From NCBI GenBank assembly GCA_963842855.1, contig CAWJHW010000004.1, forward strand, positions 328,684 through 392,683: DNA of 64,000 nucleotides, read 5' to 3'. Origin of the DNA: an uncultured Methylomirabilota bacterium. Its GTDB lineage: Bacteria > Methylomirabilota > Methylomirabilia > Methylomirabilales > 2-02-FULL-66-22. The notes under the pieces were generated by a model that was not told the DNA's origin, searched no databases, and saw only the letters and a list, made by a program, of their open reading frames with translations. Of the stretch, positions 12,415-50,685 are shown piece by piece; the first letter of the stretch is position 1, and the number at the start of each line of letters is the position of its first letter. A program made the translations under genes and the position numbers.

Positions 12415-12726
12415 TCGCTCTCCTCATCGCAGCACCCCCATGAACCTCCTGGACTCGGCTCCCTCACGCAGCTGCCCAGCCTGAGGGAAACCAGGTGGAT
12501 ACACTCCAGGATACCTGGAGGCAATACCTGCGACAGAGGCAAGGCCACTTCCAAGACAAGTTACGGCCCTGGGACCCGAAATGTTTCAGGGGGGCCCCGA
12601 AGCTCGATCCTCCGTCCCATCGAAAAGATTGAGCGTGGTTCGCACGAATCCGCCTCATCCTGCCTCACCCCCTGAAATTTCACTGAGACGCACGATTGAC
12701 CGATCTCGGATCGAGTCGTTGCGGAC
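12407..12726 (-). repeat. copy 1 of ~320 nt repeated leader (second copy 50004..50322)
   Basis: It aligns by eye over its whole length with 50004..50322, with scattered substitutions and few indels. In both copies it ends in ATGAGGAGAGCGATTGGCTGC (MRRAIGC). Confidence 0.85.
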
Positions 12727-26363: not shown

Positions 26364-27170
26364 ATGGAGCATCGCCGGAAGGAAAAGTCAGAGTATGTGG
26401 TCCAGTCGGTCGACCACGCGCTGGATATTCTCGAAACGTTCAGCTACAACGAGGAGGAGTTGGGGGTCACCGAGCTTTCCCACAAGCTCAATCTGCACAA
26501 GAACAACGTCTTCCGCCTCCTGGCGACACTGGAGACTCGCGGCTACATCGAGCAAGACAAGAAGACGGGCAATTACCGCCTGGGCATCAAGATCTTCGAA
26601 GTGGCCAACGTCTTCCTTCATCATCTCGGCCTGCGACGCCAGGCGCGTCCCATTCTGGAAGAGCTGGTGGGCAAATGCAATGAGACCGCCTACCTGGCCG
26701 TGACCGAGGGGACGGATGTGGTATACGTTCTCATGCACGAGACGACGCACACCGTGCGCGTGATCCCGCGCCTCGGCCACCGGCTGCCCGCCTACTGCAC
26801 GGCCTCGGGGAAGATCCAGCTCGCCTTCGAATCGCAGGACCGCCTCCGCGAGCTCTTCAGGGACCGAGCCTTGCGCCAGTTCACGGCAAATACGATCGCG
26901 GATTTCGACCGGCTGCTGGAACACCTCGCAGAAGTGGCCCGCCTGGGATTCGCCGTAGATCACGAGGAACTGGAAGAGGGGGTATGCTGCCTGGCCGCTC
27001 CGGTGCGGGACTATTCCCACAAGGTCGTGGCGGGCGTGGGACTGTCGGGGCCGGTCTCGCGCTTTTCCCCCGAGCGAATTCAGAACGAACTCGCGGCCCT
27101 GGTCAAGGAGGCCGGGACGAAGATCTCCCAACGACTGGGGTATGAAATTCCCGGGGAGGTTCTCACCTAA
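26364..27170 (+). CDS. IclR-family transcriptional regulator
   Basis: SVDHALDILETFS...LGVTELSHKLNLHKNNVFRLLATLETRGYIEQD is the winged HTH. The C-terminal IclR effector domain shows AYLAV, LPAYCTASGK and EELEEGVCCLAAPV. Confidence 0.88.
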   Translation: MEHRRKEKSEYVVQSVDHALDILETFSYNEEELGVTELSHKLNLHKNNVFRLLATLETRGYIEQDKKTGNYRLGIKIFEVANVFLHHLGLRRQARPILEELVGKCNETAYLAVTEGTDVVYVLMHETTHTVRVIPRLGHRLPAYCTASGKIQLAFESQDRLRELFRDRALRQFTANTIADFDRLLEHLAEVARLGFAVDHEELEEGVCCLAAPVRDYSHKVVAGVGLSGPVSRFSPERIQNELAALVKEAGTKISQRLGYEIPGEVLT

Positions 27171-27193
27171 AAACGTAGTGGGGTCGGAACGCC

Positions 27194-27457
27194 TTGACCG
27201 AGCAGCCTGACCGTCTCTTGTGTCTGAAGTGCCGCCGGGATGGCCAGTCCTTCCGCTACCTGGACCTCCTTGAGCGCGTCCGGTTGGCCGACGATCCCGC
27301 CGATCCCGATGTCGGCCACTTCTGTCTCGAGACCATTCATATCATGCAGTGTCCTGCCTGCGGCCACCGCCAGGAGCGCCTTCACCGGCGGACCCCGTAC
27401 GCCACGCTCCGCGAGGCCCAGTCCCAGCTTGACGCCCACTTTTTCGGCAAAGGCTGA
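27194..27457 (+). CDS. hypothetical zinc-ribbon-like protein (87 aa)
   Basis: CLKC ... CPACGH Cys pairs. No family recognised. Confidence 0.35.
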   Translation: MTEQPDRLLCLKCRRDGQSFRYLDLLERVRLADDPADPDVGHFCLETIHIMQCPACGHRQERLHRRTPYATLREAQSQLDAHFFGKG

Positions 27458-27473
27458 AAAATACAAAAATATC

Positions 27474-27514
27474 AATGTCTGACCCCAATGTGAGCCAATA
27501 TGGGGTCAGACATT
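27474..27514. terminator. perfect 14 bp inverted repeat (bidirectional terminator-like hairpin)
   Basis: AATGTCTGACCCCA - 13 nt loop - TGGGGTCAGACATT, in AT-rich sequence between convergent genes. Confidence 0.5.
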
Positions 27515-27556
27515 AGTAATTCTATATCTGGCATGGGCGGGGGCGGGAAGGGAAGA

Positions 27557-27694
27557 TCAGAGATTGGTGGTGAAGGCCTGCTGGCCCTGGCCGGCTAGGG
27601 CCGCGACCGTGGCAGCGGCCAGCTCCGCGTCGTGGGCGTGGTCCAGGACGAAGGCCACAATCAGCAACGCGGCCTCTAGCCCACGGGACCTCAT
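27557..27694 (-). CDS. small protein (45 aa), last gene of receiver/anti-sigma module
   Basis: Its ATG overlaps the upstream stop (ATGA). The sequence is MRSRGLEAALLIVAFVLDHAHD... The analogous small ORF at 47794..47976 follows the paralogous anti-sigma gene in the same way. Confidence 0.35.
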   Translation of the reverse strand: MRSRGLEAALLIVAFVLDHAHDAELAAATVAALAGQGQQAFTTNL

Positions 27695-28146
27695 GGCGCG
27701 TCACCCTCCAGCACGGCGGCCAGCACGAGATCCGATTGAGGGGCTGCGACACCGAATGCGATCTCATCACTCAAGGACCAGTCATCCGTTGGTAGGAGGC
27801 TGATCGATGGTGGGACCGCGACAAACTGATTCAGTAGGACGAGTCCGGCCACCAGAGCCGCGAAGGCGGGGACGAGGCCCCACGCAGGGCGCCATGGATC
27901 CGCCGTCCTCGGTGCCGGGAGGTGCCCGACCGGAAGGGCCCCGAGGACGCGGTCCACAAACCGCGGCGGTAGCTCCGGCGCGTCGGCCAGCACCGCGAGC
28001 AACCCCCGGGTCATCCGCAGGGCCGCCAGGGTGCGGCGACAGGCCGGACACGCCGCCAGGTGCCGCTGGATCTCGGCGGGGAGCTGAGCCGGAGGGCGCG
28101 AGGCAAGGTCGTGCCTCCTCTTACCGACCTGTCGGCACGTGCTCAT
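27691..28146 (-). CDS. zf-HC2 anti-sigma-factor-like membrane protein
   Basis: The H-x3-C-x2-C motif (HLAACPAC) is present. There is one central TM (WGLVPAFAALVAGLVLL). It is a paralog of 47973..48431. Confidence 0.7.
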   Translation of the reverse strand: MSTCRQVGKRRHDLASRPPAQLPAEIQRHLAACPACRRTLAALRMTRGLLAVLADAPELPPRFVDRVLGALPVGHLPAPRTADPWRPAWGLVPAFAALVAGLVLLNQFVAVPPSISLLPTDDWSLSDEIAFGVAAPQSDLVLAAVLEGDAP

Positions 28147-28202
28147 CTCGCACCTTATTTACCGCGCGCTCGGGCCGGCTCCTCGGTGGGTCGGGGTGAT
28201 GC

Positions 28203-28565
28203 CTACAGCAGGAGGTAGGCGATTAGGGCCTGGAGGAGCACGGCCGCACATGGCTTCGCCAGGAAGCCGCGGGCCCCCAGGCGGCGCATGTGTCGCACGG
28301 TCTCCGGGGTGGCATCCGCGCTCATCATCACCACGGGGAGCCCCGGGCGCGACTGCCGGAGGTCCTGAAGGACGGTGCCCCCATCCCCGTCCAGCAGCCG
28401 AATGTCCAGGAGGACCAAATCCGGTGGGGACTCCCGGGCACTCGCGAGTCCCTCTGCGGCCGATGCCGCCTCCCGCACCCGGTACCCGAAGCGGGCGAGC
28501 ACCTTGGCAAGCGACCAACGAGTAAGCTTGTCGTCGTCGATGACGAGGATCTCGCGCGTCACCAT
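28203..28565 (-). CDS. single-domain CheY-like response regulator
   Basis: ILVIDDD, DLVLLDIRLLDGDG (phospho-acceptor Asp context), VVMMSA, FLAKP. There is no output domain. Confidence 0.85.
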   Translation of the reverse strand: MVTREILVIDDDKLTRWSLAKVLARFGYRVREAASAAEGLASARESPPDLVLLDIRLLDGDGGTVLQDLRQSRPGLPVVMMSADATPETVRHMRRLGARGFLAKPCAAVLLQALIAYLLL

Positions 28566-28754
28566 TCACTCCCCCGGAGGCGCTCCGACCCCTCCTCCCC
28601 CGTCCGCATCCCGTGCCTGCCAGACCCGCCGGAGCCAGGTCCCCCCGGTAGCGGCGACGGCCGGCCATATGTTCCTGACTCCCGCCCAGAAGCGCCACCA
28701 GCCGATCACCGCCAGGGCCACCCCACTGCAGCCGGCTTGCCAGGGTCCGTTCAT
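28566..28754 (-). CDS. small single-TM protein (62 aa)
   Basis: MNGPWQAGCSGVALAVIGWWRFWAGV... Its stop directly abuts the receiver ATG (TGAATG). A paralogous copy lies at 45749..45970. Confidence 0.45.
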   Translation of the reverse strand: MNGPWQAGCSGVALAVIGWWRFWAGVRNIWPAVAATGGTWLRRVWQARDADGGGGVGAPPGE

Positions 28755-29190
28755 CCGAGGGCACCCCCCACCATCACTCCCTGGTTCCGCCAGATCTCCG
28801 AAATCGGCCGCATGGCCGTCGGGGGTATGGGAGCAGCATGAGAAAAACCCGGCAGGTTTCACTGCGGCGTAGGTGAGGCCCCACCATCCCCCGTGGCGTC
28901 CTGCGAAATCTTTGGCCTGGTTCAGGAACACCATCTACCACTACGGTGCCGGCGACCGCTATGTTTCGGGACGCGGCGCATTATCTGCGCAAAAGGCGCA
29001 TGAGTTCCTCTTGGACTCGTCGTCAGACTCCCCCCGCAGGCGCGTCCGAACCCTGTCAGGCGAGACTATTCACTCCCATTCGGGCCGGCAAAGCCTCCAA
29101 GTGGTACTCGTGATGGCGGCCGACCGACATCAGCGTGAGAACCGATGAAGCTTTTGGGGACCGCAGTCCCGCTCCGCCAGGGTTAACCCC

Positions 29191-29832
29191 TCACGCCGTG
29201 CTTTCCTGGGCCCTCAGTGCGTTGGTCAGAGGCACGCGGCGAATCAGGCGGGCCTGCTCCACGTCCAAGAGGCCTTCTCGCCTCCCCCAGTCGGCGATGT
29301 CCGCCCAGGTGAGGGCCTCCGCGCGGTTCGAGCTCCTCGCGCCTGTCCGGTCGGCGCAGACCCGCCGAGCAATGTGAAGGACCAGGGGGTCTGAGCCTTC
29401 AACGAGGAGGCGGCGGATCAGGTTGCCCTGCTGTTGCCGATCCCGCCGCAGGGCCTCGGCGGTTGGCTGCCCCTGCGTTGCGACGATGCTGTCCACGGCC
29501 TCACGGAGCTGCACCCCCGAGAGAGGCTTGCGGAGCACATCGGCCACGCGGCCCACCTCTTTCTGGTGGAGGGCGGCCTCGCGCTGCCACGTGATGGCCA
29601 GCACAGGAATGTGCGCCGTCTCGGGATGGCTCTCCAAGCGGGCCAGCAATTCCTCTCCTCGCACATCAAGTAGCTCTAGGTCGAGCACGATTACATCCGG
29701 CTGCTCTCCGGCCTCGCGGAGGGCCGCCTGGGCAGTGGACGCCAGGGTGGGGAGATGTCCCGCCTGGCGTAGGGTGCGTACCATCTGTCGGGCCAGCACC
29801 CCGTCCTCTTCCACGATTAAGATCGCCGCCAA
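29191..29832 (-). CDS. response regulator: receiver domain plus C-terminal domain of unknown function
   Basis: The likely TTG start gives (M)AAILIVEEDG, matching the reconstructed MAAILIVEDDE of the IS-disrupted paralog. The receiver domain shows DVIVLDLELLD, VLAIT and LRKP. The C-terminal region of about 90 aa has no recognisable HTH. Confidence 0.65.
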   Translation of the reverse strand: MAAILIVEEDGVLARQMVRTLRQAGHLPTLASTAQAALREAGEQPDVIVLDLELLDVRGEELLARLESHPETAHIPVLAITWQREAALHQKEVGRVADVLRKPLSGVQLREAVDSIVATQGQPTAEALRRDRQQQGNLIRRLLVEGSDPLVLHIARRVCADRTGARSSNRAEALTWADIADWGRREGLLDVEQARLIRRVPLTNALRAQESTA

Positions 29833-30009
29833 GGCGTACCATCCTTTCTGGAGGGTGCGCTCCACCCCCGTCGCACGCCCGGGCGCACTACACCGGCCCA
29901 GAGCGCGAGGGGGGCCGTGCACCATCCGGCAATCGGCCTGTAAGAGTGTTCTCTGGAGAGGTGGCTCGCCAACATCCGGTGGCCACCATGCCTCCTTTCG
30001 GGTCAGTTG

Positions 30010-30288
30010 CTATCCCGACTGGTCCGCGACCGATCCAACCGTCTCACCGGTCCCGCGAAACCAACGACACTGGGTGAATTCCACTCTCGTGCAGTACCTC
30101 CCGTACTCCTCAATGCTGGGAATCATGAACCACCCCGGGGACCGGGACAGGACACAATGGCCTCGCACCGGGTACAGTCCCTCGAGGTCGCACGGCCGGA
30201 ATTGCGGGCACAAGGCTTGTGACTTCTCGCGAGGGCATTCCGCCCACGCCTCAACCTGGTATGGGTTCCTTCTCTTCTGAGCGTTCAT
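30010..30288 (-). CDS. Cys-rich hypothetical protein (92 aa)
   Basis: GAGGGGA SD. It has seven Cys, including ECPxxxxxxLCPxxxPC, GHC, YCTRVEFTQC. It lies directly upstream (same strand) of the response regulator. Confidence 0.4.
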   Translation of the reverse strand: MNAQKRRNPYQVEAWAECPREKSQALCPQFRPCDLEGLYPVRGHCVLSRSPGWFMIPSIEEYGRYCTRVEFTQCRWFRGTGETVGSVADQSG

Positions 30289-30783
30289 GGAGTACTCCCC
30301 TCAGCGGCAAATGATCAGGGCGCGATGCCCTCAGAGGCATGTATTCCTCCGACACATGGAGCGCCCGGTCATATCAGGGACCGGCAAGGTCCGTTCCCCG
30401 TGGCCGCAAACGTTGGCGTGCCCGCCAGTCGCCAGTCCCCCACACCAAACGGGGCTCAGGAAATACGCTCGCGGATATGGTCAGCCCTCCGACCACAGCA
30501 CGCTCTTCCTTGGACTTCCCCACCCTACATCTGGGTTCAACGGCCCAAGGCTCCCCCACCCTGAGCGAGAGTCCCGAAGGACCCAACGAGGCTGGCGTCG
30601 CAACGGCATTCCGGGACTGCAAGGCCACCAGAGACACCCACGACGTGCATGGCGCTAAGTATGGCTAGCCGTCCCAGGCTACCGGAAGTGGCCGGCGGCC
30701 CCGGGGACGCGGGCATGACACCGCGCGGCCCAACGCAAGAAATTTGAAGCCTTTACCAAACGATCGGAGCGAGTTGGGGAACG

Positions 30784-31940: not shown

Positions 31941-32252
31941 CCCCGGGCCTCCTGGCCGGTACCCCTTCGTAGACTATAATACGCGACTACCCCCAGTTGT
32001 GTTTCAGAGGATGGAGAAGATTCTGTGGACGGCGGAGGAGCATCAGATCGGGCGGCCGCTGGTTTCCTCTGGATCCAGCTCCTAAGGTGGATAATTCGCG
32101 TCGACCGGCGCCCCCGTCCCGAAACGCTCCCATGAGCCGCGAGCGCCGGAGTACGAGCACCATCGGTCGCGCCGCGTCAGTCCTTCCGCACTGCGACATC
32201 GGGACGGCTCATTCCGGGCTGGCCATGGGCACCGTCAGCATGGATACGCGCG

Positions 32253-32474
32253 TCAGTATCGACATGTTTCACCCGTGGTCCGGAACGCTTCGATACGATG
32301 CCTTCCTCGACCATGCTCTTCGCAAGGAAGCAAGCGACAACGCGAGAACGGACGGTGCCATTGCGGATCACGGCTCCCCCATAGCCACCCGAGGCTGACG
32401 ATCACCGCAGCAATCAGCACGCCGGTCGAAGACGGCTCATTCAGAATCATGGAAAGCTGGACGCTATTCATCAT
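32253..32474 (-). CDS. small hypothetical protein, hydrophobic N-terminus
   Basis: GGGAGGA SD before ATGATG, 12 nt after the upstream stop. The N-terminus is VLIAAVIVSLGWLWG. The C-terminal half is Arg-rich and may be out of frame. Confidence 0.3.
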   Translation of the reverse strand: MMNSVQLSMILNEPSSTGVLIAAVIVSLGWLWGSRDPQWHRPFSRCRLLPCEEHGRGRHRIEAFRTTGETCRY

Positions 32475-33382: not shown

Positions 33383-34832
33383 CTAAGGCGGCACGGATTC
33401 CCAGCCGCCACCGAGGGCTTTGTACAGCGCGATCAGGTCGGTTGCGATGTTTTGCTCGCTCTGCACCAGCGCATTTTCGGCCTGGTAGAGTGCGGTCTGC
33501 GCTACGAGCACATTGACGAAATCTGTCAAGCCCTCGGAATACAACAGGGTTGACAGGTCCACGGCCTTCCGGTTGGCGGCGACGGCGTCCTGCAACGCCT
33601 GCCGATGCCGCTGTTCGTTCGTGAACGCAACCAAGGCGGATTCGACGTCCTGGAACGCCGCGAGCACGGTCTTCTGATAGGTGACGAACGCTTGATCCCG
33701 TAGTGCTTCCTGGACCCGGATGTTCGCCACCAGCGCGCCCCCCTGGAAGATCGGCCAGGTCACCGACGGCCCGACGCCAAACGAGCGGCTGACGTCGCTC
33801 CACCACGTGCCGAGCAGGTTGCTCTGCCAGCTTACCGACCCCGTCAGCGAAAACTGCGGGAAGAGATCGGCGGTGGCCACGCCGATCTGCGCCGTGGCGG
33901 CATGCAGTTGCGCCTCGGCCTCCCGAATGTCGGGCCGGCGGCGCACGAGGTCCGACGGCAGCCCGGCCGGCACTGCCGCCGGCACGCTGGGCAAGGGGCC
34001 AGTCGGCGCCAGCTCGGTCACCAAGGCGGCGGGGGGGCGGGCCAGCAGCACGCTCAGGGCATAGATGGCCTGCTGGGCCGTCGTTTCGAACCCCGGGATC
34101 TGCGCCGCGGTCGTCGCCACGTTGGCGTCGGCGTTGGCCACGTCCAGGAGGCTCACGAATCCCGCGCTGTACTTCTGGCGGGTGATCTCGGCAGTATGCT
34201 GCTGAGCGAGCACGTTCTTCTGCGCGACCGCGATCTCTTGCTGGGCCCCGCGGAGCTGCACGTAATTGAGCGCTACTTCGGCCACGAGGCTGACCTGGAC
34301 GTCGCGAAGGCTTTCCACGGCCGCCTGGATGTTCGCGGAAGCCGACTCGACATTGCGGCGCACCCCGCCGAACACGTCCAGTTCCCAGACGGCGTCCAGG
34401 CCGGACTGGAAGAGATCCGCGGTGCCGTTATCCGGGGTGACCCCGGCCGTGTGCCCGCGCTGGTACGCAGCGGACGCGGTGACGGCCGGCCAGAGCCCCC
34501 CGACGGCGACCCCCCGTGCGGCACGGGCCTGGCGGAGGCGGGCCTCGGCGAGTTGAAGGTCGAGGTTCGCCGTCACCGCCGCCTCGACTAATTCCGTCAA
34601 GGTCGGGTCCTTAAACTGCGCCCACCAGTGCGTCAGCTCTGCGGGCTCCGCGGTGGCGACGGACGGCTGGGTCGCGGGCGCCGTCGCCACGCCGGCCCAG
34701 GCATCTGGCGCCGTCACCTGCGGCGGGTGGTAATCGGGGCCGACCATGCAGCCGCTGGCCAGCCCCGCGAACACCCCGACGACCGCCAGCATGAGCGAGC
34801 ACCGCCGTCCGCCCCTCGTCATCACCGCCCCC

Positions 34833-34840
<8 letters not shown>
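33383..34840 (-). CDS. efflux outer-membrane factor lipoprotein (NodT/OprM family)
   Basis: Lipobox LASGC followed by MVGPDYHPPQ, the signature start of NodT-family OMFs. It has two TolC-like repeats and overlaps the upstream permease stop by 8 nt. Confidence 0.88.
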
Positions 34841-36202
<1,362 letters not shown>

Positions 36203-36206
<4 letters not shown>

Positions 36207-36913
36207 GCCGCACCGCCGCGAGTGGGATCCACACTGCCGCCGTCGAGAAGGCCGTCCTTGATCCGGATGATCCGGTGCGCGTGGTGGGCCACCCCCGGAT
36301 CGTGAGTCACGAGGATGATCGTGATGCCGTCGGCGCGGTTGAGCTGCTGGAACATCTGGAGGATTTCCTCGCTGGTGCGCGAGTCGAGGTTGCCGGTTGG
36401 CTCGTCGGCGAGCACCAGTTGCGGGCGGTTAACCAGCGCCCGGGCGATCGCGACGCGCTGCTGCTGGCCGCCTGAGAGTTGCGAGGGCTGGTGCTCGCTA
36501 CGGTCCGCCAGGCCGACTCTCTCCAGGAACTGGGCCGCGCGCCGTCTCATCTCCTGCTCCGTGAGGTTTTCCTTGGTGTAGTTCAGCGGCATCAGCACGT
36601 TCTCGAGCGCGCTCGTGCGCGGCAAGAGATTGAAGGTTTGGAAGACGAAGCCGATCCGCCGGTTCCGCAACCGGGCGCGGTGCTTGGAACTCAGACGGGA
36701 AATCTCGCTGCCATCGAACCAGTACTCGCCGGCCGTGGGATGGTCGAGACAGCCAAGGATATTCATCAAGGTGCTCTTGCCGGAGCCGCTGACGCCCATC
36801 AGGGCCACCAGCTCGCCCGAGTCGATCTCGAGCGAAATGCCCTTGAGCACCGCCACATCCACTTCGCCGAGGTAATAAGTCTTATGGATGTTCCGTAACG
36901 CGATTAACGCCAT
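36203..36913 (-). CDS. macB: MacB-type ABC transporter ATP-binding protein
   Basis: Walker [11 protein letters not shown]-loop, signature [15 protein letters not shown], Walker [14 protein letters not shown]-loop VTHD. The ATG at 36913 is preceded by GAGGGGG. It lies in the same frame as the upstream macA ORF (see finding). Confidence 0.88.
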
Positions 36914-36932
36914 GCGCGGAGCCCCCTCACGG

Positions 36933-38386
36933 TCAGTCCGCACCCTTCCGGGGTCCCCCGCCCTGGCTATCGCCGCGGCCGCCCGGCCCCGGACCGGGTG
37001 CGCCGGGAGCCGTGCCAGGGGTGGCCCCGGATCCGCCGCCTGGGCCACCCGGCCCTGGTGCCCGCTGACGCCCGAATCGGAGCTGCGGCAGGAAGGGGCT
37101 GACGCCCCCGGCGCCGGGGCGCCCGCCACGTCCGTCGTCATTTCTCCGACAATGACCCGCTGGTTTTCGGCGAGCTCGGGGCCACTCACCTCCGTCTGCG
37201 TTGCGTCCGTCAAGCCCGTGGTCACCCCGATCGGCCGGACAAAGCTCCCCTGCTCGACCCAGAGGGTGCCGCGCCCGCCCGGCCGGCTGCCGCCCCCTCC
37301 TTGCGGTGGGCTGGCGGGGGCGTCGGTCCCCCGGTGAAAACCTGGCGCGATCTGGCTGGGCTGGGGGGTCCACCTCAGCGCGGCATTGGGGACCTGCAGC
37401 ACCTGGTGCCGGCGACCCGCCTCGAACTTGGCGTTGGCCGTCAGGTAGGGCAACAGCATGCCATTCGCGTTATCGGTATTCACCTCCACGGTGTAGGTGA
37501 CGACGTTCTGCGTCATCGTGGCGTTGAGCCGAATCCTACCGACGCGCCCGTGGAACACCCGGTCGGGAAACGCGTCCACGGTGAAGGTCACCGCCTGCCC
37601 GGGGTGAATGGTGCCGATGTCTGCCTCGTTGACCGAGGCCCAGACCTGGATGCGCTTGAGATCCTTGGCGATGAGGAACAGGCTGGGCGTGCTCATGCTG
37701 GAGACCACCGTCTGTCCGATGTTGACCCGCCGGTCGACGATCACCCCCTCGACGGGGGAGGTGATCGTGCAGTAGTCGAGGTTCTCCTGCGCCTTCGCCA
37801 GCGCCGCCTGGTCTTGCACCAGCGTCGCCCGTGCCAGCTCGACAGCCGCCACGGCCACGTCGACGTTCGCTTTCGCCACCTCGTAATTGGCCCGGTATTG
37901 ATCGAAGAGTGTCGGGGCTAACGCCTCGGAGGGCCCGAGCCGCTGGGCGCGCTCCCAGTCCGCCTGAGCCTGCAGCAGCTTCGCCTTCATCTGCTCGACG
38001 TTGGCGGTGGCGCTGACCAGGTTGGCCTGGGCTTGTTGCACTTGGGCCTTGGCGGTGTCGACATCGGCTGTATAGAGGGTGGCGTCAATCCGCGCCAGCA
38101 CCGTCCCGACCCCGACGACTGATCCGTAGTCGACCGGTTTCCCATGCTTGTCCGTGCCGAAGGCCTGGATCATCCCCGCTACTTGGGCCCCCACGTCCAC
38201 CACTTCCTCCGGCTCCACCGTGCCCGTGGCGTTGATCGTGGCCACCAGATCCCCGCGTTTTACCGGAACCGTGCGGAAGGTCGGCTGGTTATCGCGATCC
38301 GCCCGCAACCACCACGCGCCGGTGCCGCCGATCACGGCCACCCCGGCGACCCCCAGGATCAGGATTCCAAGAGTTCGTCGCATCAT
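36933..38386 (-). CDS. macA: MacA-type periplasmic adaptor (HlyD/RND MFP family), 3' end ambiguous
   Basis: N-terminal TM, barrel-sandwich and coiled-coil hairpin (QVQQAQANL...LLQAQADWERAQRL), TITSPVEGVIVDR. The body frame runs on into the ATPase gene. An alternative frame (track ORF 36933..37373) gives a Gly/Pro tail ending at TGA 36933, 17 nt before the ATPase ATG. Confidence 0.8.
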
Positions 38387-45619: not shown

Positions 45620-45780
45620 CGGGCAAGCGGATGTCCACCCTGAGAACCAAATCCGGCCGCGATTCCCTCCGCGGTCGATGCCGCTTCCCGCACCCGGTCT
45701 CCAGCTCGGGCAAAGACCTTGGTGAGCGACCAGCGTGTAAGCTTGTCGTCATCCATGACGAGGATCTCGCGTGTTACCGC
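45620..45780 (-). pseudogene. decayed copy of the CheY-like receiver gene (paralog of 28203..28565)
   Basis: AVTREILVMDDDKLTRWSLTKVFARAGDRVREAAS aligns with MVTREILVIDDDKLTRWSLAKVLARFGYRVREAAS. The ATG is replaced by GCG, an internal deletion is present, and the sequence diverges after about 45 codons. Confidence 0.7.
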
Positions 45781-45970
45781 TCCCTCCGGTAGGAGTAACC
45801 CCGGCTCCGTCTCCCCCGTCCGCATCCGGGGCCTGCCAGACGCGCCGCAGCCAGGTCCCCCCGACAGCGATGACTCCCGGCCACCCGTTCCTGACTCCCG
45901 CCCAGAAGCGCCACCAGCCGATCACCGCCAGGGTCACCCCACTCCAGCCGACTTGCCAGGGTCCGTTCAT
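45749..45970 (-). CDS. small single-TM protein, paralog of 28566..28754
   Basis: MNGPWQVGWSGVTLAVIGWWRFWAGVRNGWP... is clearly similar to the other copy. The stop is shifted relative to that copy. Confidence 0.4.
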   Translation of the reverse strand: MNGPWQVGWSGVTLAVIGWWRFWAGVRNGWPGVIAVGGTWLRRVWQAPDADGGDGAGVTPTGGSGNTRDPRHG

Positions 45971-45988
45971 CCGAGGGCCCCCTTCCCA

Positions 45989-47530
45989 TCACTCTCTGCT
46001 TCCCGAAGACCTCTCCAGTCCGCGGCTAGGCCGTTCGTCCTGGGTAACGCACCGGGCCGCGCGTCTCATTCCCTCCTGGGAATGATGGGCTGACCCGGCG
46101 CGGCGAGCGGTGCCGGCACTGAGAACGGTTCCCCCGCCCCTCAGCAGAGCCTTCCGATTCGTCGGGCATGAGCGTCGTTCGTTCGGCCTCATCCAGCACA
46201 GCCCGCGCCCGCCAAGGCTGGGGCTGTTCGGTGGCTTTACCCAGGAAGCGCCGACCATATCCCCCGCGGCACTGGTGTCACGGATCCAGTCGCCATATCT
46301 TTCGTAGCGCAGCGCGTCGATGGGATCGAGGAAAGCCGCCTTGTGCGCGGGATAGTAGCCAAAGAAAATCCCGATGAGAGCTGCCGAGCCGAAGGCCACC
46401 GCGATGGACGCCGGCGTGATCAGCGTGGACCAGTGGGCCAGCATGGCGATGAGAGTGGACCCGCCCACGCCCAGGAGGATGCCGACGATCCCCCCGATCA
46501 GGGCCAGCGTCATCGCCTCGATCAAAAACTGCCCCAGGATGTCGCGGGCGCGGGCGCCCACCGCCATCCGCAGGCCGATCTCCCGCGTCCGCTCCGTCAC
46601 CGACACCAGCATGATATTCATGATCCCGATGCCGCCGACGAGGAGGGAGACTGACGCAATGGCCCCGAGCAGCAACGTCATGGTCCGGCTGCTCTCGGCC
46701 TGCGCGGCAAAGGTCTCGGCAAGGTTGCGCACGTCAAAGTCGTTATCCTGGAACGGTTGGAGGTGGTGCCGCTGCCGGAGGAGGTCTACCACCTGCTGTT
46801 GAATGTCCGAGAGGAGGTCGGCTGACGCGGCCTTGATCTGGATTTGCCCGACGAACCGCGCGTTCGCCTGGCTCACCCCCAGGACGCGTTTCTTGGCCGT
46901 GGACAGGGGGATCAGCACCACATCATCCTGATCCTGGCCCCAACTGGATTGGCCCTTCCTCGTAAGCAGGCCGATGACCGTGAAGGGCACCTTCTTCATG
47001 CGGATGATCTGGCCGATGGGGTCGCCGTCGCCGAAGAGGTTCTCCTTCACCGTCTGGCCCAGGACGGCCACCTTGGTGGCGCCCTCCAGGTCTGAGGCTG
47101 TAAAGAAGCGCCCCGTCGCCAGGTCCCAATCCCGGATCACGAGGTAGTCCGAAGCGGTCCCTTGGATCGCGGTGGACCAGTTCTGATTCCCGAAGACGAT
47201 CTGGGCGCCCCCCCGCAGGGAGCCGCTGGCGGCCACCACCCCGGGGATCTCGATCGCAATAGCCTTCGCGTCGTCCTCGCTCAGCGTTTGCGTGGAGCCG
47301 GTCCCCATCCGCATCCCCCCGCTCGTGGCGGCGCCGGGGAGGACGATCAGGAGATTGGAGCCGATGCTGGCAATCTGCTCCTCGATGCGGGCGGCCGCCC
47401 CGCTCCCCACGGCCACCATGGCGATGACCGCCCCCACGCCGATGATGATCCCGAGCATCGTCAGGGCGGAGCGCAGTTTGTTCACCCGGAGGGCCCGCAG
47501 GGCGATCCTCACACTCGCAAGCACGTACAT
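45989..47530 (-). CDS. MacB-type ABC permease with lost stop codon (103-aa non-homologous C-terminal extension)
   Basis: The FtsX/MacB_PCD pattern is as in 34833..36206 and ends at the family terminus DPIDALRYE (E codon 46301-46303). AGA follows where the paralog has a stop, and the ORF runs on to 45989. Confidence 0.8.
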   Translation of the reverse strand: MYVLASVRIALRALRVNKLRSALTMLGIIIGVGAVIAMVAVGSGAAARIEEQIASIGSNLLIVLPGAATSGGMRMGTGSTQTLSEDDAKAIAIEIPGVVAASGSLRGGAQIVFGNQNWSTAIQGTASDYLVIRDWDLATGRFFTASDLEGATKVAVLGQTVKENLFGDGDPIGQIIRMKKVPFTVIGLLTRKGQSSWGQDQDDVVLIPLSTAKKRVLGVSQANARFVGQIQIKAASADLLSDIQQQVVDLLRQRHHLQPFQDNDFDVRNLAETFAAQAESSRTMTLLLGAIASVSLLVGGIGIMNIMLVSVTERTREIGLRMAVGARARDILGQFLIEAMTLALIGGIVGILLGVGGSTLIAMLAHWSTLITPASIAVAFGSAALIGIFFGYYPAHKAAFLDPIDALRYERYGDWIRDTSAAGDMVGASWVKPPNSPSLGGRGLCWMRPNERRSCPTNRKALLRGGGTVLSAGTARRAGSAHHSQEGMRRAARCVTQDERPSRGLERSSGSRE

Positions 47531-47613: not shown

Positions 47614-47793
47614 TCACGTAAGGGCCATATGGTCGACCGTGGCGTCGTGTGGTGCCTCGATCTGCTTATCCTTCAGGATGCAACTATCCCGCAACAGGAT
47701 TCGAATAGCGTGGGCCGCGATATCCGGTTCGTGCGTAACGAGGGTGATGCTGGCCTCGCGATCATCGTTAGTCAGGAGCCGCTCCGGCCTCGC
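47614..47793 (-). pseudogene. C-terminal remnant of a MacB-type ABC ATPase
   Basis: ERLLTNDDREASITLVTHEPDIAAHAIRILLRDSCILKD matches the H-loop/C-terminus of MacB-type ATPases (compare [25 protein letters not shown] in 36203..36913). Walker A/B and the signature motif are absent. Confidence 0.65.
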
Positions 47794-47976
47794 TCAGGGG
47801 CTAACGGCAGACGGCGCTTGTTGGGCCTGGGCTAAGACGCCGCCGCTTTCCCGATCGGCGCGATCACGGTCAACACCACTGCCCAGTGAGATCATTCCGC
47901 TCGACGTGGCACCGGCGGCCGTGCCCAGCAGGAAGGCGAGCAGCAGGAGCAGGGCCCCTTGTACTCGCGGTTTCAT
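47794..47976 (-). CDS. small secreted/membrane protein (60 aa)
   Basis: Its ATG overlaps the anti-sigma stop (ATGA). MKPRVQGALLLLLAFLLGTAAG is signal-like. Confidence 0.4.
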   Translation of the reverse strand: MKPRVQGALLLLLAFLLGTAAGATSSGMISLGSGVDRDRADRESGGVLAQAQQAPSAVSP

Positions 47977-48431
47977 GTCCCGCCTCCTTCCATCACGGCC
48001 GTGAGGATCGCGTCCGGTTCCGGCGGCGAGGCCTCCAGGACGATGCGCTCGCTGGCTGATAGCCCTTCCATCGGGAGGAGTCCGATCGGGCCGGGAACCG
48101 TGCTGTCCTGGAATTGGAAGAGGATCAGGAGGAGGGCGACCGTGGCGGCGAAGACCGGCACCAGCCCCCACCCCAGGCGCCACATCTCCGCCTCGGGATG
48201 CGAGCGCCTCCGAGCAGGCAACGCGGCCAGGACCCGGTCCGCGAAATCGACGGGAGGCTCGGGTGCATCCGCCGCCGCCGCAAGCAGGCCTCGGCCCAGT
48301 CGGGCGGCTGCCAGCGCTTGAGCACAGGCCGGGCATCCCGTCAGATGCTCCCGGATACCCGCAGGCATCTCCGTCGCAGAGACCGCTGCCAGCTCGCTGA
48401 TTCTCTTCTCAACCTCTCCGCACGATTTCAT
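47973..48431 (-). CDS. zf-HC2 anti-sigma-factor-like membrane protein (paralog of 27691..28146)
   Basis: HLTGCPAC (H-x3-C-x2-C) and a central TM (WGLVPVFAATVALLLIL). It is collinear with the paralog. Confidence 0.7.
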   Translation of the reverse strand: MKSCGEVEKRISELAAVSATEMPAGIREHLTGCPACAQALAAARLGRGLLAAAADAPEPPVDFADRVLAALPARRRSHPEAEMWRLGWGLVPVFAATVALLLILFQFQDSTVPGPIGLLPMEGLSASERIVLEASPPEPDAILTAVMEGGGT

Positions 48432-48510: not shown

Positions 48511-49083
48511 CTAGTTCACTTTGCCATCCGAGTGGCTGGCGCTCTTCAGCATGGTCAGGGCGTCGGTCACGATGTCCTGCTGGCCGTCATTGGTGTAAAT
48601 CGTGAAGGGCACCAACAAGACCCCCACCGGAAGGATGCCTTGCGTCATGTGCTTGTAGTCGCCCGGTTTGGGCGCCGGATCGGTCACGGAGAAGTAATAC
48701 CCAACTCCCGCCGTGCCTTCGAACTCCAGGATCTCGATCGTCTTCTCGGCGGCCAGCAACCTGACCTGCTCTGCCGCCCGCTGCACTAACCGCTGTAACG
48801 CTTCGCGATCCGGATTGGGGGCGTCTTTCTCGGTCGGCCAGAGCGGCGTCAAGACGACGCCAAACGGCGCCCCGGATTTCGACGTGAAGACGATCGTCTG
48901 GAAGAGCCGATCGCGGTCCTGCTCGAGTTCCTCCTTCCACAACGTGGGCACTTGCAACTGCAGACGTCCGTGATCCGTGAGCGCATACTGCCGGTCGGCC
49001 GTGTCCGCGGCATGCACTGGGGTCCCAGCCATACAGATCAGGACGAACAGGATGGCGCCAAGCAAGCGGTAGGACTTGATCAC
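48511..49083 (-). CDS. secreted protein of unknown function (190 aa)
   Basis: GTG start after AAGGAGGG. The signal peptide is LLGAILFVLICMAGTPVHA. No domain recognised. Confidence 0.55.
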   Translation of the reverse strand: MIKSYRLLGAILFVLICMAGTPVHAADTADRQYALTDHGRLQLQVPTLWKEELEQDRDRLFQTIVFTSKSGAPFGVVLTPLWPTEKDAPNPDREALQRLVQRAAEQVRLLAAEKTIEILEFEGTAGVGYYFSVTDPAPKPGDYKHMTQGILPVGVLLVPFTIYTNDGQQDIVTDALTMLKSASHSDGKVN

Positions 49084-49124
49084 GAAGGGCCCTCCTTAGG
49101 TGACCTGCGCTCTGCTGGAAAACA

Positions 49125-49651
49125 CTAAGGCCCGGGCGGCGGCCCGGGGGGTGCCGGGAAGTAGCCAGGTGGGGGGGCGGCGGAGGGGGCACGGCCAGAG
49201 GTTGCCGAGGCCCCCGCACCACCCCGGGGACCTGGTTCCCCTTCGCGTACATGCACTGCTGGTACGCCATGTCGTACCGGCGCTGCGCATGCCATCCGGC
49301 CGCCTGATCGGCATTGGCGCCCGCCGCCGCCCCCGTGAGGAGGCCGGCGCCGGCGCCGATCGCCGCCCCGGTGCCCGCATGGCCGGCCAAGGCCCCGAGC
49401 CCTGCCCCGAGCCCCGCGCCAACGGCGGTGCCCACCGCCGCGCCGACCGCCGTATTCTGGGCCGCGGGCGCGCCTGGCGGCCCCACCTGCTGGGCCGCCC
49501 ACTGGCGGCAGGTGGCATCCTCGGCCTGGAATTGCTCAAAGGGTTTCCCCGGGGCGGGGAGCACCATCACGCTCGGGCCGGTCGGCAGCGTCGCACAGCC
49601 GCCCAGCGCCACCGCCGCGCTCCCGAGGAGCAGGACCCATCGTCTCTGCAT
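49125..49651 (-). pseudogene. glycine-zipper lipoprotein, frameshifted in a C7 run
   Basis: AAGGAG SD. MQRRWVLLLGSAAVALGGC carries a lipobox and is followed by the Gly-zipper AVGAAVGTAVGAGLGAGLGALAG. RRYDMAYQQCMYAKGNQVPG is the family C-terminal block. The expected tail PPPGYFPAPPGPPPGP-TAG (stop 49125) is in another frame (track ORF 49125..49502). Confidence 0.6.
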
Positions 49652-49667
49652 CGCGCCATCTCCTTTC

Positions 49668-50024
49668 CTATCTCGGCGGGGTTGCCGGCGGCACGACCTG
49701 CATCCAGCCGTTCGGACACTGTTGGACGTACGGATAGTACCCCTGCGGGTTCTGACAGTAGTACCAGTAGGCCGGCGCCTGGGGGGCCGGGGCGGGCTGC
49801 TCATAGACCGGAGGCGGTTGGACGACCACGGGGGGGGCCGGATACGGGTAGTAATAGGGAGACCCCCACCACGGGCTCGGTCCCCAGTAGCCTGGTCCCA
49901 CCCCGAGAGGGACGTCGAAGTTGAAAAAGACGTGCCCCCCCGCCTCGCTGGGGATCGGACTGGCCAGCAAGAGGACCAGGAGAACCAGGACCATCAGCAC
50001 ACTGCAGCCAATCGCTCTCCTCAT
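49668..50024 (-). CDS. small secreted Pro/Tyr/Trp-rich protein
   Basis: MRRAIGCSVLMVLVLLVLLLASP is a signal peptide. The C-terminus is YWYYCQNPQGYYPYVQQCPNGWMQV. It is the first gene downstream of the repeated leader copy 2. Confidence 0.55.
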   Translation of the reverse strand: MRRAIGCSVLMVLVLLVLLLASPIPSEAGGHVFFNFDVPLGVGPGYWGPSPWWGSPYYYPYPAPPVVVQPPPVYEQPAPAPQAPAYWYYCQNPQGYYPYVQQCPNGWMQVVPPATPPR

Positions 50025-50322
50025 TTCAGCACCCCCCTGAACCTCCTGGACTTGGATCCCTCACGCAACTGCCCAGCCTAACGGATACAAGTGGTTACAC
50101 TCCAGCATACCTAGAGCCAATTCCTGCTACAGACGCAAGCCCACTTTCAACACAGGTTACGGCCCAGGGACCCGAAATGTTTCATGGTGGTCCCGAAGCT
50201 CTGTCCTCCGTCCCATCGAAAATATTGAGAGTGGTTCGCAAGAATCCGCCTCATCCTGCCTCACGCCCTGAAATTTCACTGAGAAGCACGATTGACCGAC
50301 CTCGGATCGAGTCGTTGCGGAC
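50004..50322 (-). repeat. copy 2 of ~320 nt repeated leader
   Basis: See 12407..12726. Here it precedes an intact ORF that starts with the shared MRRAIGC codons. Confidence 0.85.
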
Positions 50323-50685
50323 CACCCGGGCGCGAGAATCCATGCTGCCAATCGGACAGTTCTGTCACACTCGGCTCGGGCTTGGGGCACAAAGAGGGAC
50401 GCCGACCTTCTCTTCCATCCTGCCGGGCGGAATATACACCCGCAACGGTCCCGTTTCAGTCGTCGCAGTGCTTTAGGTACGATCATGGTGATTCCGCATG
50501 AAAATCGCTTCGCATGCCGTCGGCATCAATCGGCACCAGCCTCGGAGTCTCCCGCCTCAACATGTGTGAGGACGCCATTCTTCGCCTGAAACGAAACCGG
50601 CAGGGGTTGCGTACTATAGAAAGGAATCGACTGAGCGGCATGGGGTCGCCGGGGGGTTTACCCTCGACAAAGAAAGGACCAGGAC

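What the first reader, a model, noticed from the sequence alone, without database searches (positions are those of the whole stretch)
27557..28754. Four-gene module: small TM protein, CheY-like receiver, zf-HC2 anti-sigma-like protein, small protein, with no sigma factor
The four minus-strand genes are tightly coupled (TGAATG, a 56 nt gap, ATGA). zf-HC2 anti-sigma factors are normally encoded next to their ECF sigma factor. Here the upstream partner is a stand-alone receiver domain instead, and no sigma-factor gene occurs anywhere in the window. The window holds paralogs of all four genes. The small TM protein and a decayed receiver lie at 45620-45970, and the anti-sigma-like and small protein lie at 47794-48431. 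Nucleotide-level similarity extends over roughly 28395-28795 versus 45625-46012. One possible reading is a phosphorylation-controlled partner switch, with the receiver binding the anti-sigma-like protein. This would be loosely analogous to PhyR-NepR but with different domains. I know of no description of this arrangement.
Basis: partly seen in the sequence, partly recalled or inferred. Interest (0 to 1): 0.6.

Follow-up and report, generated by a model that had tools for sequence, protein, structure and literature searches.

The report
Sigma-less anti-sigma gene beside receiver
In a Methylomirabilota (NC10) genome, a small operon pairs a CheY-like receiver with a spare copy of a membrane anti-sigma factor that has no sigma-factor gene beside it; it is a conserved offshoot of an ordinary envelope-stress sigma/anti-sigma operon and still carries that sigma's promoter motif, so it is a modest variant and not a new signalling principle.

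Summary
The four minus-strand genes, their junctions, the absence of a sigma gene in the window and the paralogous pieces are all real. The anti-sigma-like protein (AS1) belongs to a family of about 150 aa with a Cys/His-x3-Cys-x2-Cys zinc motif and one transmembrane helix. In about 30 Methylomirabilota loci this family sits in a canonical operon: ECF sigma, anti-sigma, a 140-aa Spy/CpxP-like protein, [LTXXQ], then MacA and MacB. AS1 heads a monophyletic clade in which a stand-alone receiver lies upstream instead of sigma. This linkage holds in at least five lineages with different flanks. AS1 evolves with dN/dS of about 0.4, keeps every family-invariant residue and shows no clade-specific change in the cytoplasmic domain. 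The canonical sigma genes carry a sigmaW-like promoter, TGAAAC-N17-CGTA. The window has 8 exact core matches against 0.1 expected, and one lies upstream of the module. I conclude that AS1 is an orphan anti-sigma paralogue inside the regulon of a sigma encoded elsewhere, and that it most likely acts on that sigma in trans. A receiver/anti-sigma partner switch rests on adjacency alone. In one lineage the receiver is a pseudogene while AS1 is intact. The second locus is a composite of deletion relics. This is a new variant of a known kind, of moderate interest.

The parts
28942..28967 (-). ECF (sigmaW-like) promoter core GAAAC-N17-CGTA. It lies 188 nt upstream of the ATG of the first small ORF, between the 244-aa receiver protein and the module.
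   Evidence: The motif was derived from the regions upstream of 15 diverse canonical sigma genes (of 17 inspected). There are 8 exact matches in the window against 0.10 expected. This site reads CGAAAC rather than TGAAAC and scored low on an over-fitted PWM.
28566..28754 (-). Small ORF 'sTM' (62 aa, Trp-rich), translationally abutted to the receiver (TGAATG).
   Evidence: It is intact in L009 and L054, frameshifted in L050 and degenerate in L016. dN/dS is 0.36-0.54. Hydropathy is weak. It has only 3 relatives in 1.84 billion representatives.
28203..28565 (-). Stand-alone CheY-like receiver (120 aa) with an intact phospho-acceptor site.
   Evidence: Pfam Response_reg at 4.8e-25. dN/dS is 0.14-0.23. 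Relatives at 56-80% identity occur behind other ECF/anti-sigma/Metal_resist operons or behind an HK-NtrC pair.
28147..28202 (-). 56-nt leader between the receiver and AS1, with a core conserved across lineages (CCGAGGAGCCG..CG.GC.CGCGG..GAGGTGCG.CATG).
   Evidence: Alignment. No sigma70 promoter, terminator or Rfam match was found. Similarity to the 3' ends of sigma genes is not significant.
27691..28146 (-). AS1, an orphan zinc-finger (ZAS-type) single-pass anti-sigma paralogue (151 aa).
   Evidence: C4/H29/C33/C36 are present, and the TM helix spans 89-105. dN/dS is 0.37-0.50 against 0.22-0.58 in canonical copies (most pairs 0.22-0.50).
27557..27694 (-). p45, a truncated derivative of the 140-aa Spy/CpxP-like protein. 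It overlaps the AS1 stop (ATGA).
   Evidence: Its N-terminus matches the N-terminus of P140. Longer or other remnants occur in L015/L016 (74 aa) and L054, and none in L012. Of 12 differences to L009, 10 are at third codon positions.
29191..29925 (-). W_244, a receiver with an uncharacterised four-helix C-terminal domain. It is a recurrent neighbour of the sTM/receiver core.
47973..48431 (-). AS2, the orthologue of the canonical anti-sigma (73% identical to L001). It has no sigma gene upstream.
   Evidence: The same arrangement is found in MAG locus L023, 95% identical. dN/dS there is 2.15 on few changes.
47617..47970 (-). Deletion scar. It holds an N-terminal remnant of P140 (47970-47794), an LTXXQ fragment (47847-47752) and the C-terminal 52 codons of the MacB ATPase (47763-47617).
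   Evidence: tblastn. This is the most diverged stretch against L023 and carries an indel.
46301..47530 (-). Intact MacB-type permease (83% identical to L001). The ORF reads on to 45989.
   Evidence: dN/dS is 0.10-0.21.
45652..45970 (-). sTM2 (45970-45749) plus receiver codons 2-43 (45777-45652). This is the remnant of the module at its ancestral site in front of the GT39 gene.
   Evidence: L054/L055 have TonB_C-sTM-RR-AS1-remnants-GT39-GT2-epimerase with an 86% identical GT39.
48511..50183 (-). ECF promoter core (50183-50158), then p124 (50024-49668), a Gly-zipper lipoprotein (49651-49121) and a 190-aa secreted protein (49083-48511), leading into AS2.
   Evidence: In L009 and L050 the same p124 and Gly-zipper genes precede TonB_C-sTM-RR-AS1.

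Best explanation
The module is a sigma-less offshoot of the sigmaW-like envelope-stress system of Methylomirabilota.

The ancestral unit is an autoregulated operon: ECF sigma, a zinc-finger transmembrane anti-sigma, a 140-aa Spy/CpxP-like periplasmic protein, [LTXXQ], then the MacA and MacB efflux genes. A duplicate of the anti-sigma plus the 5' part of the next gene came to lie behind a pre-existing small-ORF/receiver pair. This sat at the end of an ECF-dependent envelope operon (LTXXQ, p124, Gly-zipper, TonB_C, sTM, RR), without its sigma gene.

In this genome the module was later copied to 27.5-28.8 kb. The copy at the original site, in front of the GT39 gene, was truncated.

AS1 keeps the zinc ligands, the TM helix and the C-terminal motif of the family. 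It is transcribed from a promoter of the same ECF type. I infer that it sequesters the ECF sigma encoded elsewhere in the genome. That would make it an extra, separately dosed negative-feedback arm.

The co-transcribed receiver is a functional, phosphorylatable single-domain regulator whose kinase is elsewhere. It most likely links the ECF response to a two-component pathway and does not serve as the obligate ligand of AS1.

Shown: homology, contexts, clade structure, selection, promoter motifs and the rearrangement history. Inferred: sigma binding in trans, co-transcription and the role of the receiver.
For: - Canonical context: homologues 37-55% identical to AS1 lie directly behind an ECF sigma, in front of P140/LTXXQ/MacAB, in about 30 loci.
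- Clade structure: the receiver-linked proteins form one clade in a neighbour-joining tree (no bootstrap) — window/L026/L010, L016, L014 and L055. It is sister to L027/L028.
- Family features retained: C4, H29, C33, C36, R44, F63, W85, W89 and the LVLAAVLEG tail are all kept. Only 3 clade-specific positions exist, and they are scattered along the protein rather than concentrated in the cytoplasmic domain. The profile hits RsiW at E=1.6e-4. The N-terminal 55 residues are predicted helical with pLDDT 84-92.
- Selection: AS1 dN/dS is 0.37-0.50 at dS up to 0.77, against 0.22-0.58 for canonical copies (most 0.22-0.50).
- Promoter: TGAAAC-N17-CGTA precedes 15 diverse canonical sigma genes of the 17 inspected. 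It matches the published sigmaW-type elements, -35 TGAAAC and -10 CGTA (PMC5758882). The window has 8 exact core matches against 0.10 expected, including 28967-28942 upstream of the module and 50183-50158 upstream of the operon that contains AS2. The same core lies upstream of LTXXQ-p124-GlyZip-TonB_C-sTM-RR in L050, of the sigma-less anti-sigma in L027, and of miniAS-AS-LTXXQ in L044.
- Sigma elsewhere: MAG GcC5-40 has both a complete sigma operon (L018) and the sigma-less AS2 locus (L023).
- Receiver dispensable: L015 and L016 are two independent assemblies, 100% identical over 722 nt. Both share a deletion of about 113 nt that removes the receiver's last 34 codons, next to an intact AS1.
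Against: - The sigma itself is not in the window, and I could not retrieve it for this species.
- Binding of AS1 to any sigma is untested.
- The promoter site upstream of the module is a single core match (CGAAAC, not TGAAAC), 188 nt from the first ATG. It is confirmed only in contigs of the same species (L025, L026).
- Receiver/AS1 adjacency has survived several flank rearrangements. Receivers 66-80% identical occur next to a different ZAS-type sigma/anti-sigma operon (L056, L051). A direct functional tie between receiver and anti-sigma proteins therefore remains possible.
- Foldseek did not recover an anti-sigma fold for the model (best was ChrR at E=6.1).
Confidence: 0.5

Rival explanations
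1. Phosphorylation-controlled partner switch. The phosphorylated stand-alone receiver binds the cytoplasmic zinc-finger domain of AS1 and displaces a sigma, or otherwise changes AS1 activity. The receiver would then have functionally replaced the sigma gene's position as the upstream partner.
For: - The receiver directly upstream of AS1 is conserved in at least five lineages despite different flanks.
- The receiver has an intact phospho-site and is under strong purifying selection, with dN/dS 0.14-0.23.
- Close receiver relatives sit in or near another ZAS-type sigma/anti-sigma operon: L056 (SIG'-AS'-Metal_resist-RR) and L051.
- No comparable system turned up in two keyword searches and a term search within one review.
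Against: - The receiver is a pseudogene in L015/L016 while AS1 is intact.
- A probable converse case exists. P0007 is a degenerate AS1 (C33Y, lost C-terminus). It appears to share a contig with an intact receiver, P0055, judged only from equal contig length.
- The receiver is almost unchanged between AS1-linked and non-linked contexts, at 80% identity with the same alpha4-beta5-alpha5 sequence.
- The AS1 cytoplasmic domain shows no clade-specific substitutions.
- The receiver has no sigma-like domain, unlike PhyR.
- A complex prediction could not be run.
Confidence: 0.12
2. AS1 no longer binds a sigma. It has been recruited as a membrane accessory or sensor of a two-component pathway, modulating a kinase or tethering the receiver, as LiaF or CpxP do for their kinases.
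For: - Both sigma-less subclades sit next to two-component parts. A receiver lies upstream in subclade A. An HAMP histidine kinase and an NtrC-type regulator lie downstream in L027/L028.
- A distant receiver relative follows an HK-NtrC pair in L052.
Against: - The kinases and regulators in L028 and L052 are only 30% and 45% identical, so orthology is not established.
- All anti-sigma-domain residues remain conserved as in the sigma-linked copies.
- The window contains no kinase.
- AS1 persists where the receiver has decayed.
Confidence: 0.13
3. The module is a by-product of rearrangement in a recombination-prone region and has no function of its own. AS1 and its neighbours would be slowly decaying passengers.
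For: - The region is full of relics: the AS2 deletion scar, sTM2 plus a receiver fragment, a truncated W_244 copy beside an IS630-type transposase, and truncated P140 remnants.
- sTM is frameshifted or degenerate in two lineages.
- AS2 shows dN/dS of 2.15 against L023.
Against: - AS1 is an intact 149-151 aa ORF in all five lineages, with pN 0.17 against pS 0.37 for window versus L016.
- The receiver's dN/dS is 0.14-0.23.
- p45 differences to L009 are 10 of 12 at third codon positions.
- The block of homology to L009 ends exactly at the module borders.
Confidence: 0.1

Closest known systems
SigW-RsiW of Bacillus subtilis (ECF sigma with a zinc-binding single-pass anti-sigma)
   Same: - The zinc motif H-x3-C-x2-C plus an upstream ligand is present.
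- Both have a single TM helix.
- The family profile aligns to the RsiW chain of PDB 5wuq.
- The cognate sigma genes of the canonical homologues carry a TGAAAC/CGTA promoter like sigmaW-type promoters.
- Both serve an envelope-stress or efflux regulon.
   Different: - AS1 and AS2 have no adjacent sigma.
- The extracytoplasmic part is only about 45 residues.
- The promoter spacer is 17 nt.
- Regulated proteolysis is untested.
- AS1 is co-transcribed with a CheY-like receiver.
PhyR-NepR-EcfG partner switch of Alphaproteobacteria
   Same: It combines a receiver domain and an anti-sigma factor in one signalling unit. Single-domain receivers (MrrA, SdrG) feed into that pathway (PMC5964349).
   Different: - PhyR carries a sigma-like domain that mimics EcfG. 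The receiver here is a bare 120-aa domain.
- NepR is a short soluble protein without a zinc finger. AS1 is a ZAS-type membrane protein.
- EcfG is encoded nearby, whereas no sigma is encoded here.
- No interaction is shown here (PMC8999054).
Paralogous or extra anti-sigma copies within one ECF system (e.g. multiple NepR/EcfG in Methylobacterium, PMC4814048)
   Same: Several anti-sigma paralogues exist per genome, not all next to a sigma, and presumably act on shared sigma factors.
   Different: The anti-sigma family is different. Here the orphan copy is embedded in the sigma's own regulon and fixed next to a receiver.
ECF sigmas governed by two-component systems (SigE-CseBC, ECF39; ECF234)
   Same: Genomic association of ECF signalling with two-component proteins (PMC8999054).
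   Different: Those systems lack an anti-sigma and use a DNA-binding regulator to transcribe the sigma gene. Here an anti-sigma is present, the receiver has no output domain and the sigma is absent from the locus.

Membership tests
ZAS / class I anti-sigma domain (zf-HC2; RsiW, RsrA, ChrR type) | H-x3-C-x2-C motif plus an upstream Cys/His ligand about 25 residues before it | tested here: met
   C4, H29, C33 and C36 are present. H29, C33 and C36 are invariant, and C4 is present in at least 90% of 36 family members. That this spacing equals that of ChrR (H6/H31/C35/C38) is from my own knowledge.
ZAS / class I anti-sigma domain (zf-HC2; RsiW, RsrA, ChrR type) | Pfam PF13490 (zf-HC2) at or above the gathering score | tested here: not met
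   The score is 19.8 bits against 22.2, and only profile positions 22-35 are matched. AS2 scores 14.7 bits.
ZAS / class I anti-sigma domain (zf-HC2; RsiW, RsrA, ChrR type) | Sequence homology to an anti-sigma with a solved sigma complex | tested here: met
   The profile of 36 members against PDB hits RsiW (5wuq_C) at E=1.6e-4 over positions 25-78. NCBIfam NF052375 'antisigma' scores 1.9e-10, below its cutoff.
ZAS / class I anti-sigma domain (zf-HC2; RsiW, RsrA, ChrR type) | Helical anti-sigma-domain fold | tested here: inconclusive
ZAS / class I anti-sigma domain (zf-HC2; RsiW, RsrA, ChrR type) | Encoded next to and co-transcribed with its cognate ECF sigma | tested here: not met
   There is no sigma next to AS1 or AS2, or anywhere in the window. 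The feature is met for about 30 homologous loci.
ZAS / class I anti-sigma domain (zf-HC2; RsiW, RsrA, ChrR type) | Binds and inhibits a sigma factor | not testable with these tools
   This needs protein interaction or transcription assays.
Single-domain (CheY-like) response regulator | Receiver domain above the Pfam threshold, with acidic pocket, phospho-acceptor Asp, Thr/Ser and Lys, and no output domain | tested here: met
   PF00072 scores 88.3 bits against 30.2 and covers residues 6-115 of 120. DDD10-12, D53, S82 and K103 are conserved in all intact orthologues.
Single-domain (CheY-like) response regulator | Cognate histidine kinase encoded nearby | tested here: not met
   No kinase-like ORF was found in the six-frame translation of the window.
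PhyR-NepR-EcfG partner switch | Receiver fused to a sigma-like domain that mimics the sigma | tested here: not met
   The receiver is 120 aa with no extra domain. The C-terminal four-helix domain of the neighbouring W_244 has no detectable sigma similarity: sigma HMM E=0.31, and no Pfam or PDB match beyond the receiver.
PhyR-NepR-EcfG partner switch | Short soluble NepR-type anti-sigma and an adjacent EcfG sigma | tested here: not met
   AS1 is a 151-aa ZAS-type membrane protein. No sigma is present in the window.
Regulon of the sigmaW-like ECF sigma of Methylomirabilota | Promoter core (T)GAAAC-N17-CGTA upstream, oriented toward the genes | tested here: met
   An exact core lies at 28967-28942 on the minus strand. 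It is one of 8 in the window against 0.10 expected. The motif was defined on 15 canonical sigma genes of 17 inspected. Activity was not tested.

The most novel reading that the evidence does not exclude
The bare CheY-like receiver, once phosphorylated, docks directly on the zinc-finger cytoplasmic domain of the orphan anti-sigma AS1. It thereby frees, or traps, an ECF sigma encoded elsewhere. This would be a partner switch that needs no sigma-mimic domain and would be mechanistically distinct from PhyR-NepR. The recurrence of this receiver family beside two unrelated ZAS-type sigma/anti-sigma operons (L056, L051) would then reflect a general receiver/ZAS interaction in Methylomirabilota.
Probability: 0.12. 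Interest if true: 0.8.

Novelty: new variant of a known kind. Interest (0 to 1): 0.4.

Why it matters
Anti-sigma factors are usually studied as one-to-one partners encoded beside their sigma. Here a lineage of uncultured nitrite/nitrate-dependent methane oxidiser relatives (NC10) keeps extra, sigma-less anti-sigma copies inside the sigma's own regulon. One of these copies is stably tied to a two-component receiver.

If AS1 titrates the sigma in trans, the case shows how feedback strength in ECF circuits can be tuned by gene duplication and operon reshuffling. If the receiver touches AS1 directly, it would be a new way to couple phosphorelays to ECF sigmas.

The work also yields a promoter motif (TGAAAC-N17-CGTA) that predicts a candidate envelope-stress regulon of this phylum from sequence alone.

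Tried and rejected
- **Complex prediction.** I submitted a receiver-linker-AS1(1-84) chimera to AlphaFold2.
- **Leader as a relic of the deleted sigma gene.** By eye, AS2's last 26 nt resemble the L001 sigma/anti-sigma junction. Local alignment scores for the AS1 and AS2 leaders do not exceed shuffled controls. I therefore make no relic claim.
- **Other promoter types.** A search for a GGAAC-type ECF -35 element upstream of the canonical sigma genes found none. The promoter type of the second ECF system, GTAATC-N16-CGTC from L056, has no relevant match near the module.
- **PWM scan.** A PWM that included the spacer columns was over-fitted and missed three of the eight exact core matches. I rely on the core pattern with dinucleotide-shuffle statistics instead.
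- **Other signals at 27300-29300.** No sigma70-type promoters or intrinsic terminators were found. Rfam gave no match over 26500-30500.
- **W_244 as a PhyR-like anti-anti-sigma.** The sigma HMM gave E=0.31. Pfam and NCBIfam match the receiver only. The Foldseek hits are all receiver domains. Its C-terminal domain remains unassigned.
- **GTDB genome scan.** It returned only sigma-linked or AS2-type loci and no further receiver-linked ones.
Full report
**1. Observation.**
The window is 65% G+C. Its proteins have their closest relatives in Methylomirabilota/NC10 MAGs.

The four minus-strand ORFs and their junctions are exactly as described:
- sTM at 28754-28566.
- The receiver at 28565-28203, joined to sTM by TGAATG.
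- A 56-nt gap.
- AS1 at 28146-27691.
- p45 at 27694-27557, overlapping AS1 by ATGA.

Third-position G+C supports the receiver and AS1 as coding. It is less clear for the small ORFs.

The receiver is a canonical Response_reg domain (4.8e-25) with all phosphorylation residues.

AS1 matches Pfam zf-HC2 only partially and below threshold. Its family nevertheless conserves C4 (in at least 90% of sequences) and invariant H29, C33 and C36. It has a TM helix at 89-105 and a conserved C-terminal LVLAAVLEG motif. The family profile aligns to B. subtilis RsiW in PDB 5wuq at E=1.6e-4.

No sigma gene of the cognate type exists in any frame of the window. No histidine kinase exists either.

The nucleotide-level paralogy is real. 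Region 28443-28819 matches 45658-46034 at 81.5% over 378 nt.

**2. What the anti-sigma family normally looks like.**
Context look-ups and two collection scans gave 57 loci. In about 30 of them, homologues 37-55% identical to AS1 sit 10-20 nt behind a 202-aa ECF sigma. They are followed by:
- a 140-aa protein with an N-terminal signal anchor (P140, weakly Spy/CpxP-like);
- often an LTXXQ/Metal_resist protein;
- a MacA-type adaptor, a MacB ATPase and a MacB permease.

This is an ordinary ECF envelope-stress/efflux operon.

**3. The receiver-linked clade.**
A neighbour-joining tree of all retrieved family members, labelled by upstream neighbour, places every receiver-linked protein in one clade. 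The tree has no bootstrap support values. The members are window/L025/L026, L009/L010, L015/L016, L011-L014 and L054/L055. L027/L028 are sister to this clade. All other branches are sigma-linked, or linked to a short 'mini anti-sigma' ORF.

Within the clade the order sTM-RR-AS1-(P140 remnant) is kept while the flanks differ:
- TonB_C upstream with an SDR gene downstream (L009).
- TonB_C upstream with a convergent ABC transporter downstream (L050 plus L012).
- TonB_C upstream with GT39-GT2-epimerase downstream (L054).
- A W_244-like regulator downstream (L015).
- W_244 upstream with a small ORF and an IclR-family gene downstream (window).

Homology between the window and L009 starts and stops at the module borders.

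**4. Selection.**
- AS1 evolves with dN/dS of 0.37-0.50 at dS up to 0.77. Canonical copies show 0.22-0.58 (most pairs 0.22-0.50).
- The receiver shows 0.14-0.23 and sTM shows 0.36-0.54.
- All residues conserved in the sigma-linked proteins are also conserved in the AS1 clade. Only three positions (16, 61, 101) are clade-specific, and they are scattered along the protein rather than concentrated in the cytoplasmic domain. Nothing therefore suggests a new binding partner for that domain.
- p45 is a truncated P140. L015/L016 keep a 74-aa version with an internal deletion, L054 has only fragments and L012 has nothing. Even so, 10 of the 12 differences between the window and L009 fall on third codon positions, so the short form is constrained in this sub-lineage.

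**5. The sigma acts from elsewhere.**
The regions upstream of 15 diverse canonical sigma genes (of 17 inspected) share TGAAAC-N17-CGTA about 20 nt before the start codon. These are the -35 and -10 elements published for sigmaW-type promoters (PMC5758882).

The core GAAAC-N17-CGTA occurs 8 times in the window against 0.10 expected from dinucleotide shuffles. All eight have the same spacer. The eight sites are:
- 28967-28942 (-), between W_244 and sTM.
- 50183-50158 (-), in front of p124-GlyZip-W_190-AS2.
- 50588 (+) and 56327 (-), in front of Metal_resist/LTXXQ genes.
- 56966 (+), in front of an RND adaptor.
- 12587 (-), 32005 (-) and 32270 (-).

The same core precedes LTXXQ-p124-GlyZip-TonB_C-sTM-RR in L050, whose close relative L012 continues RR-AS1. 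It also precedes the sigma-less anti-sigma of L027 and miniAS-AS-LTXXQ in L044.

The sigma-less paralogues are therefore likely members of the regulon, judged by promoter motif. The sigma must be encoded outside the window. Consistent with this, MAG GcC5-40 holds both a full sigma operon (L018) and the AS2-type locus (L023).

**6. The second locus is a set of relics.**
AS2 (48431-47976) is the orthologue of the canonical anti-sigma, 73% identical to L001. Downstream of it lie:
- only the first ~59 codons of P140;
- a 32-codon LTXXQ fragment;
- the last 52 codons of the ATPase;
- an intact permease.

Upstream of AS2 is a 190-aa secreted protein, not a sigma.

The same scar is present in L023. 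The P140 remnant is the most diverged stretch there. AS2 itself shows 8 non-synonymous against about 1.5 synonymous changes.

Directly after the permease come sTM2 and receiver codons 2-43, followed by the GT39 gene. L054/L055 show the intact ancestral arrangement, TonB_C-sTM-RR-AS1-remnants-GT39-GT2-epimerase. The window's intact module at 27.5-28.8 kb is therefore a relocated copy. The original copy lost everything from receiver codon 44 through AS1.

**7. Is the receiver the partner of AS1?**

For:
- The adjacency is conserved.
- Receivers of this family occur as the fourth gene of another ECF operon with a different ZAS-type anti-sigma (80% identical; L056, SIG'-AS'-Metal_resist-RR).
- Another (66% identical) lies 4 kb downstream of such an operon (L051).
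- The sister subclade L027/L028 has a histidine kinase and an NtrC-type regulator behind the anti-sigma. A distant receiver relative follows an HK-NtrC pair in L052.

Against:
- In L015/L016 the last 34 codons of the receiver are deleted. This junction is identical in two independent assemblies. L016 also has a frameshift, and sTM is degenerate there. AS1 and its leader remain intact.
- P0007 is a degenerate AS1 (C33Y, lost C-terminus). It probably lies on the same 4829-nt contig as an intact receiver, judged only from contig length.
- The receiver sequence barely differs between AS1-linked and unlinked contexts.
- A structural test of the complex was not possible.

**8. Conclusion.**
The best-supported reading is that AS1 is an orphan paralogue of a sigmaW/RsiW-like anti-sigma. 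It is embedded in the regulon of a sigma encoded elsewhere and acts on that sigma in trans. It is co-transcribed with a single-domain receiver that ties the response to a two-component pathway.

The partner-switch reading is not excluded, but it rests on adjacency alone. Two keyword searches and a term search within one review turned up only PhyR-type partner switches, which need a sigma-mimic domain, and two-component control of sigma transcription. The arrangement is thus a new variant of a known kind, not a new category.

Noticed in passing
window 29191-29925 (-); truncated copy at 52604-52804 (-): W_244 is a receiver followed by a conserved four-helix C-terminal domain of about 90 aa, with no Pfam, NCBIfam or PDB match. 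The family looks largely NC10-restricted: 61 hits, and the few that carry names are all NC10/Methylomirabilales. It recurs next to the sTM/receiver core in three different arrangements (window, L015, L057). It could be the DNA-binding or output partner of the system.
   Followed up: partly
window 27650-28146 versus L009 1780-2280: Divergence is mosaic. AS1 is 98-100% identical at the nucleotide level between two lineages, while the adjacent receiver (82%), sTM (62%) and the 3' half of p45 (85%) are much more diverged. This suggests a recent recombination tract confined to the anti-sigma gene. A milder version is seen for AS2 against L023.
   Followed up: partly
window 12562-12587, 31980-32005, 32245-32270, 50158-50183, 50588-50613, 56302-56327, 56966-56991: Seven further exact ECF promoter cores (GAAAC-N17-CGTA) make this window an island of a candidate regulon. 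Two of the sites (12587 and 50183) are near-identical 26-mers. The two at 32.0-32.3 kb have no convincing ORF downstream.
   Followed up: partly
loci L022, L035, L036, L041, L042, L044, L046: These canonical loci carry an extra ORF of about 45-69 aa encoding only the N-terminal zinc-finger anti-sigma domain, with no TM helix. It sits just upstream of the full-length anti-sigma. In L042 and L044 no sigma gene was detected in the upstream sequence available (L042 has only about 400 nt).
   Followed up: no
window 52841-53858 (+): An IS630-type transposase (HTH plus DDE_3) is split into two ORFs. It sits next to the truncated W_244 paralogue.
   Followed up: no
window 33383-38386 (-): A second MacAB/TolC-like efflux system is present. 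Its membrane-fusion protein and ABC ATPase are fused into one 727-aa protein. A permease and an OEP outer-membrane factor follow.
   Followed up: no
window 45989-46300 (-): The MacB permease ORF reads about 100 codons past the usual C-terminus (...ALRYE). It ends just before sTM2, so the normal stop codon appears to be lost.
   Followed up: no
window 28755-28934 (-): An in-frame ATG at 28934 lies 8 nt after the CGTA of the promoter core. It would extend sTM to 122 aa as a possible leaderless transcript. The extension is not conserved in L009 or L054 and has no clear coding signal.
   Followed up: partly
window 57316-64000 (+): The RND adaptor and pump genes appear broken into several consecutive ORFs (57316-57861, 57812-58543, 58616-59242, 59274-60641, 61143-61664, 61661-end). 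They are possible pseudogenes.
   Followed up: no
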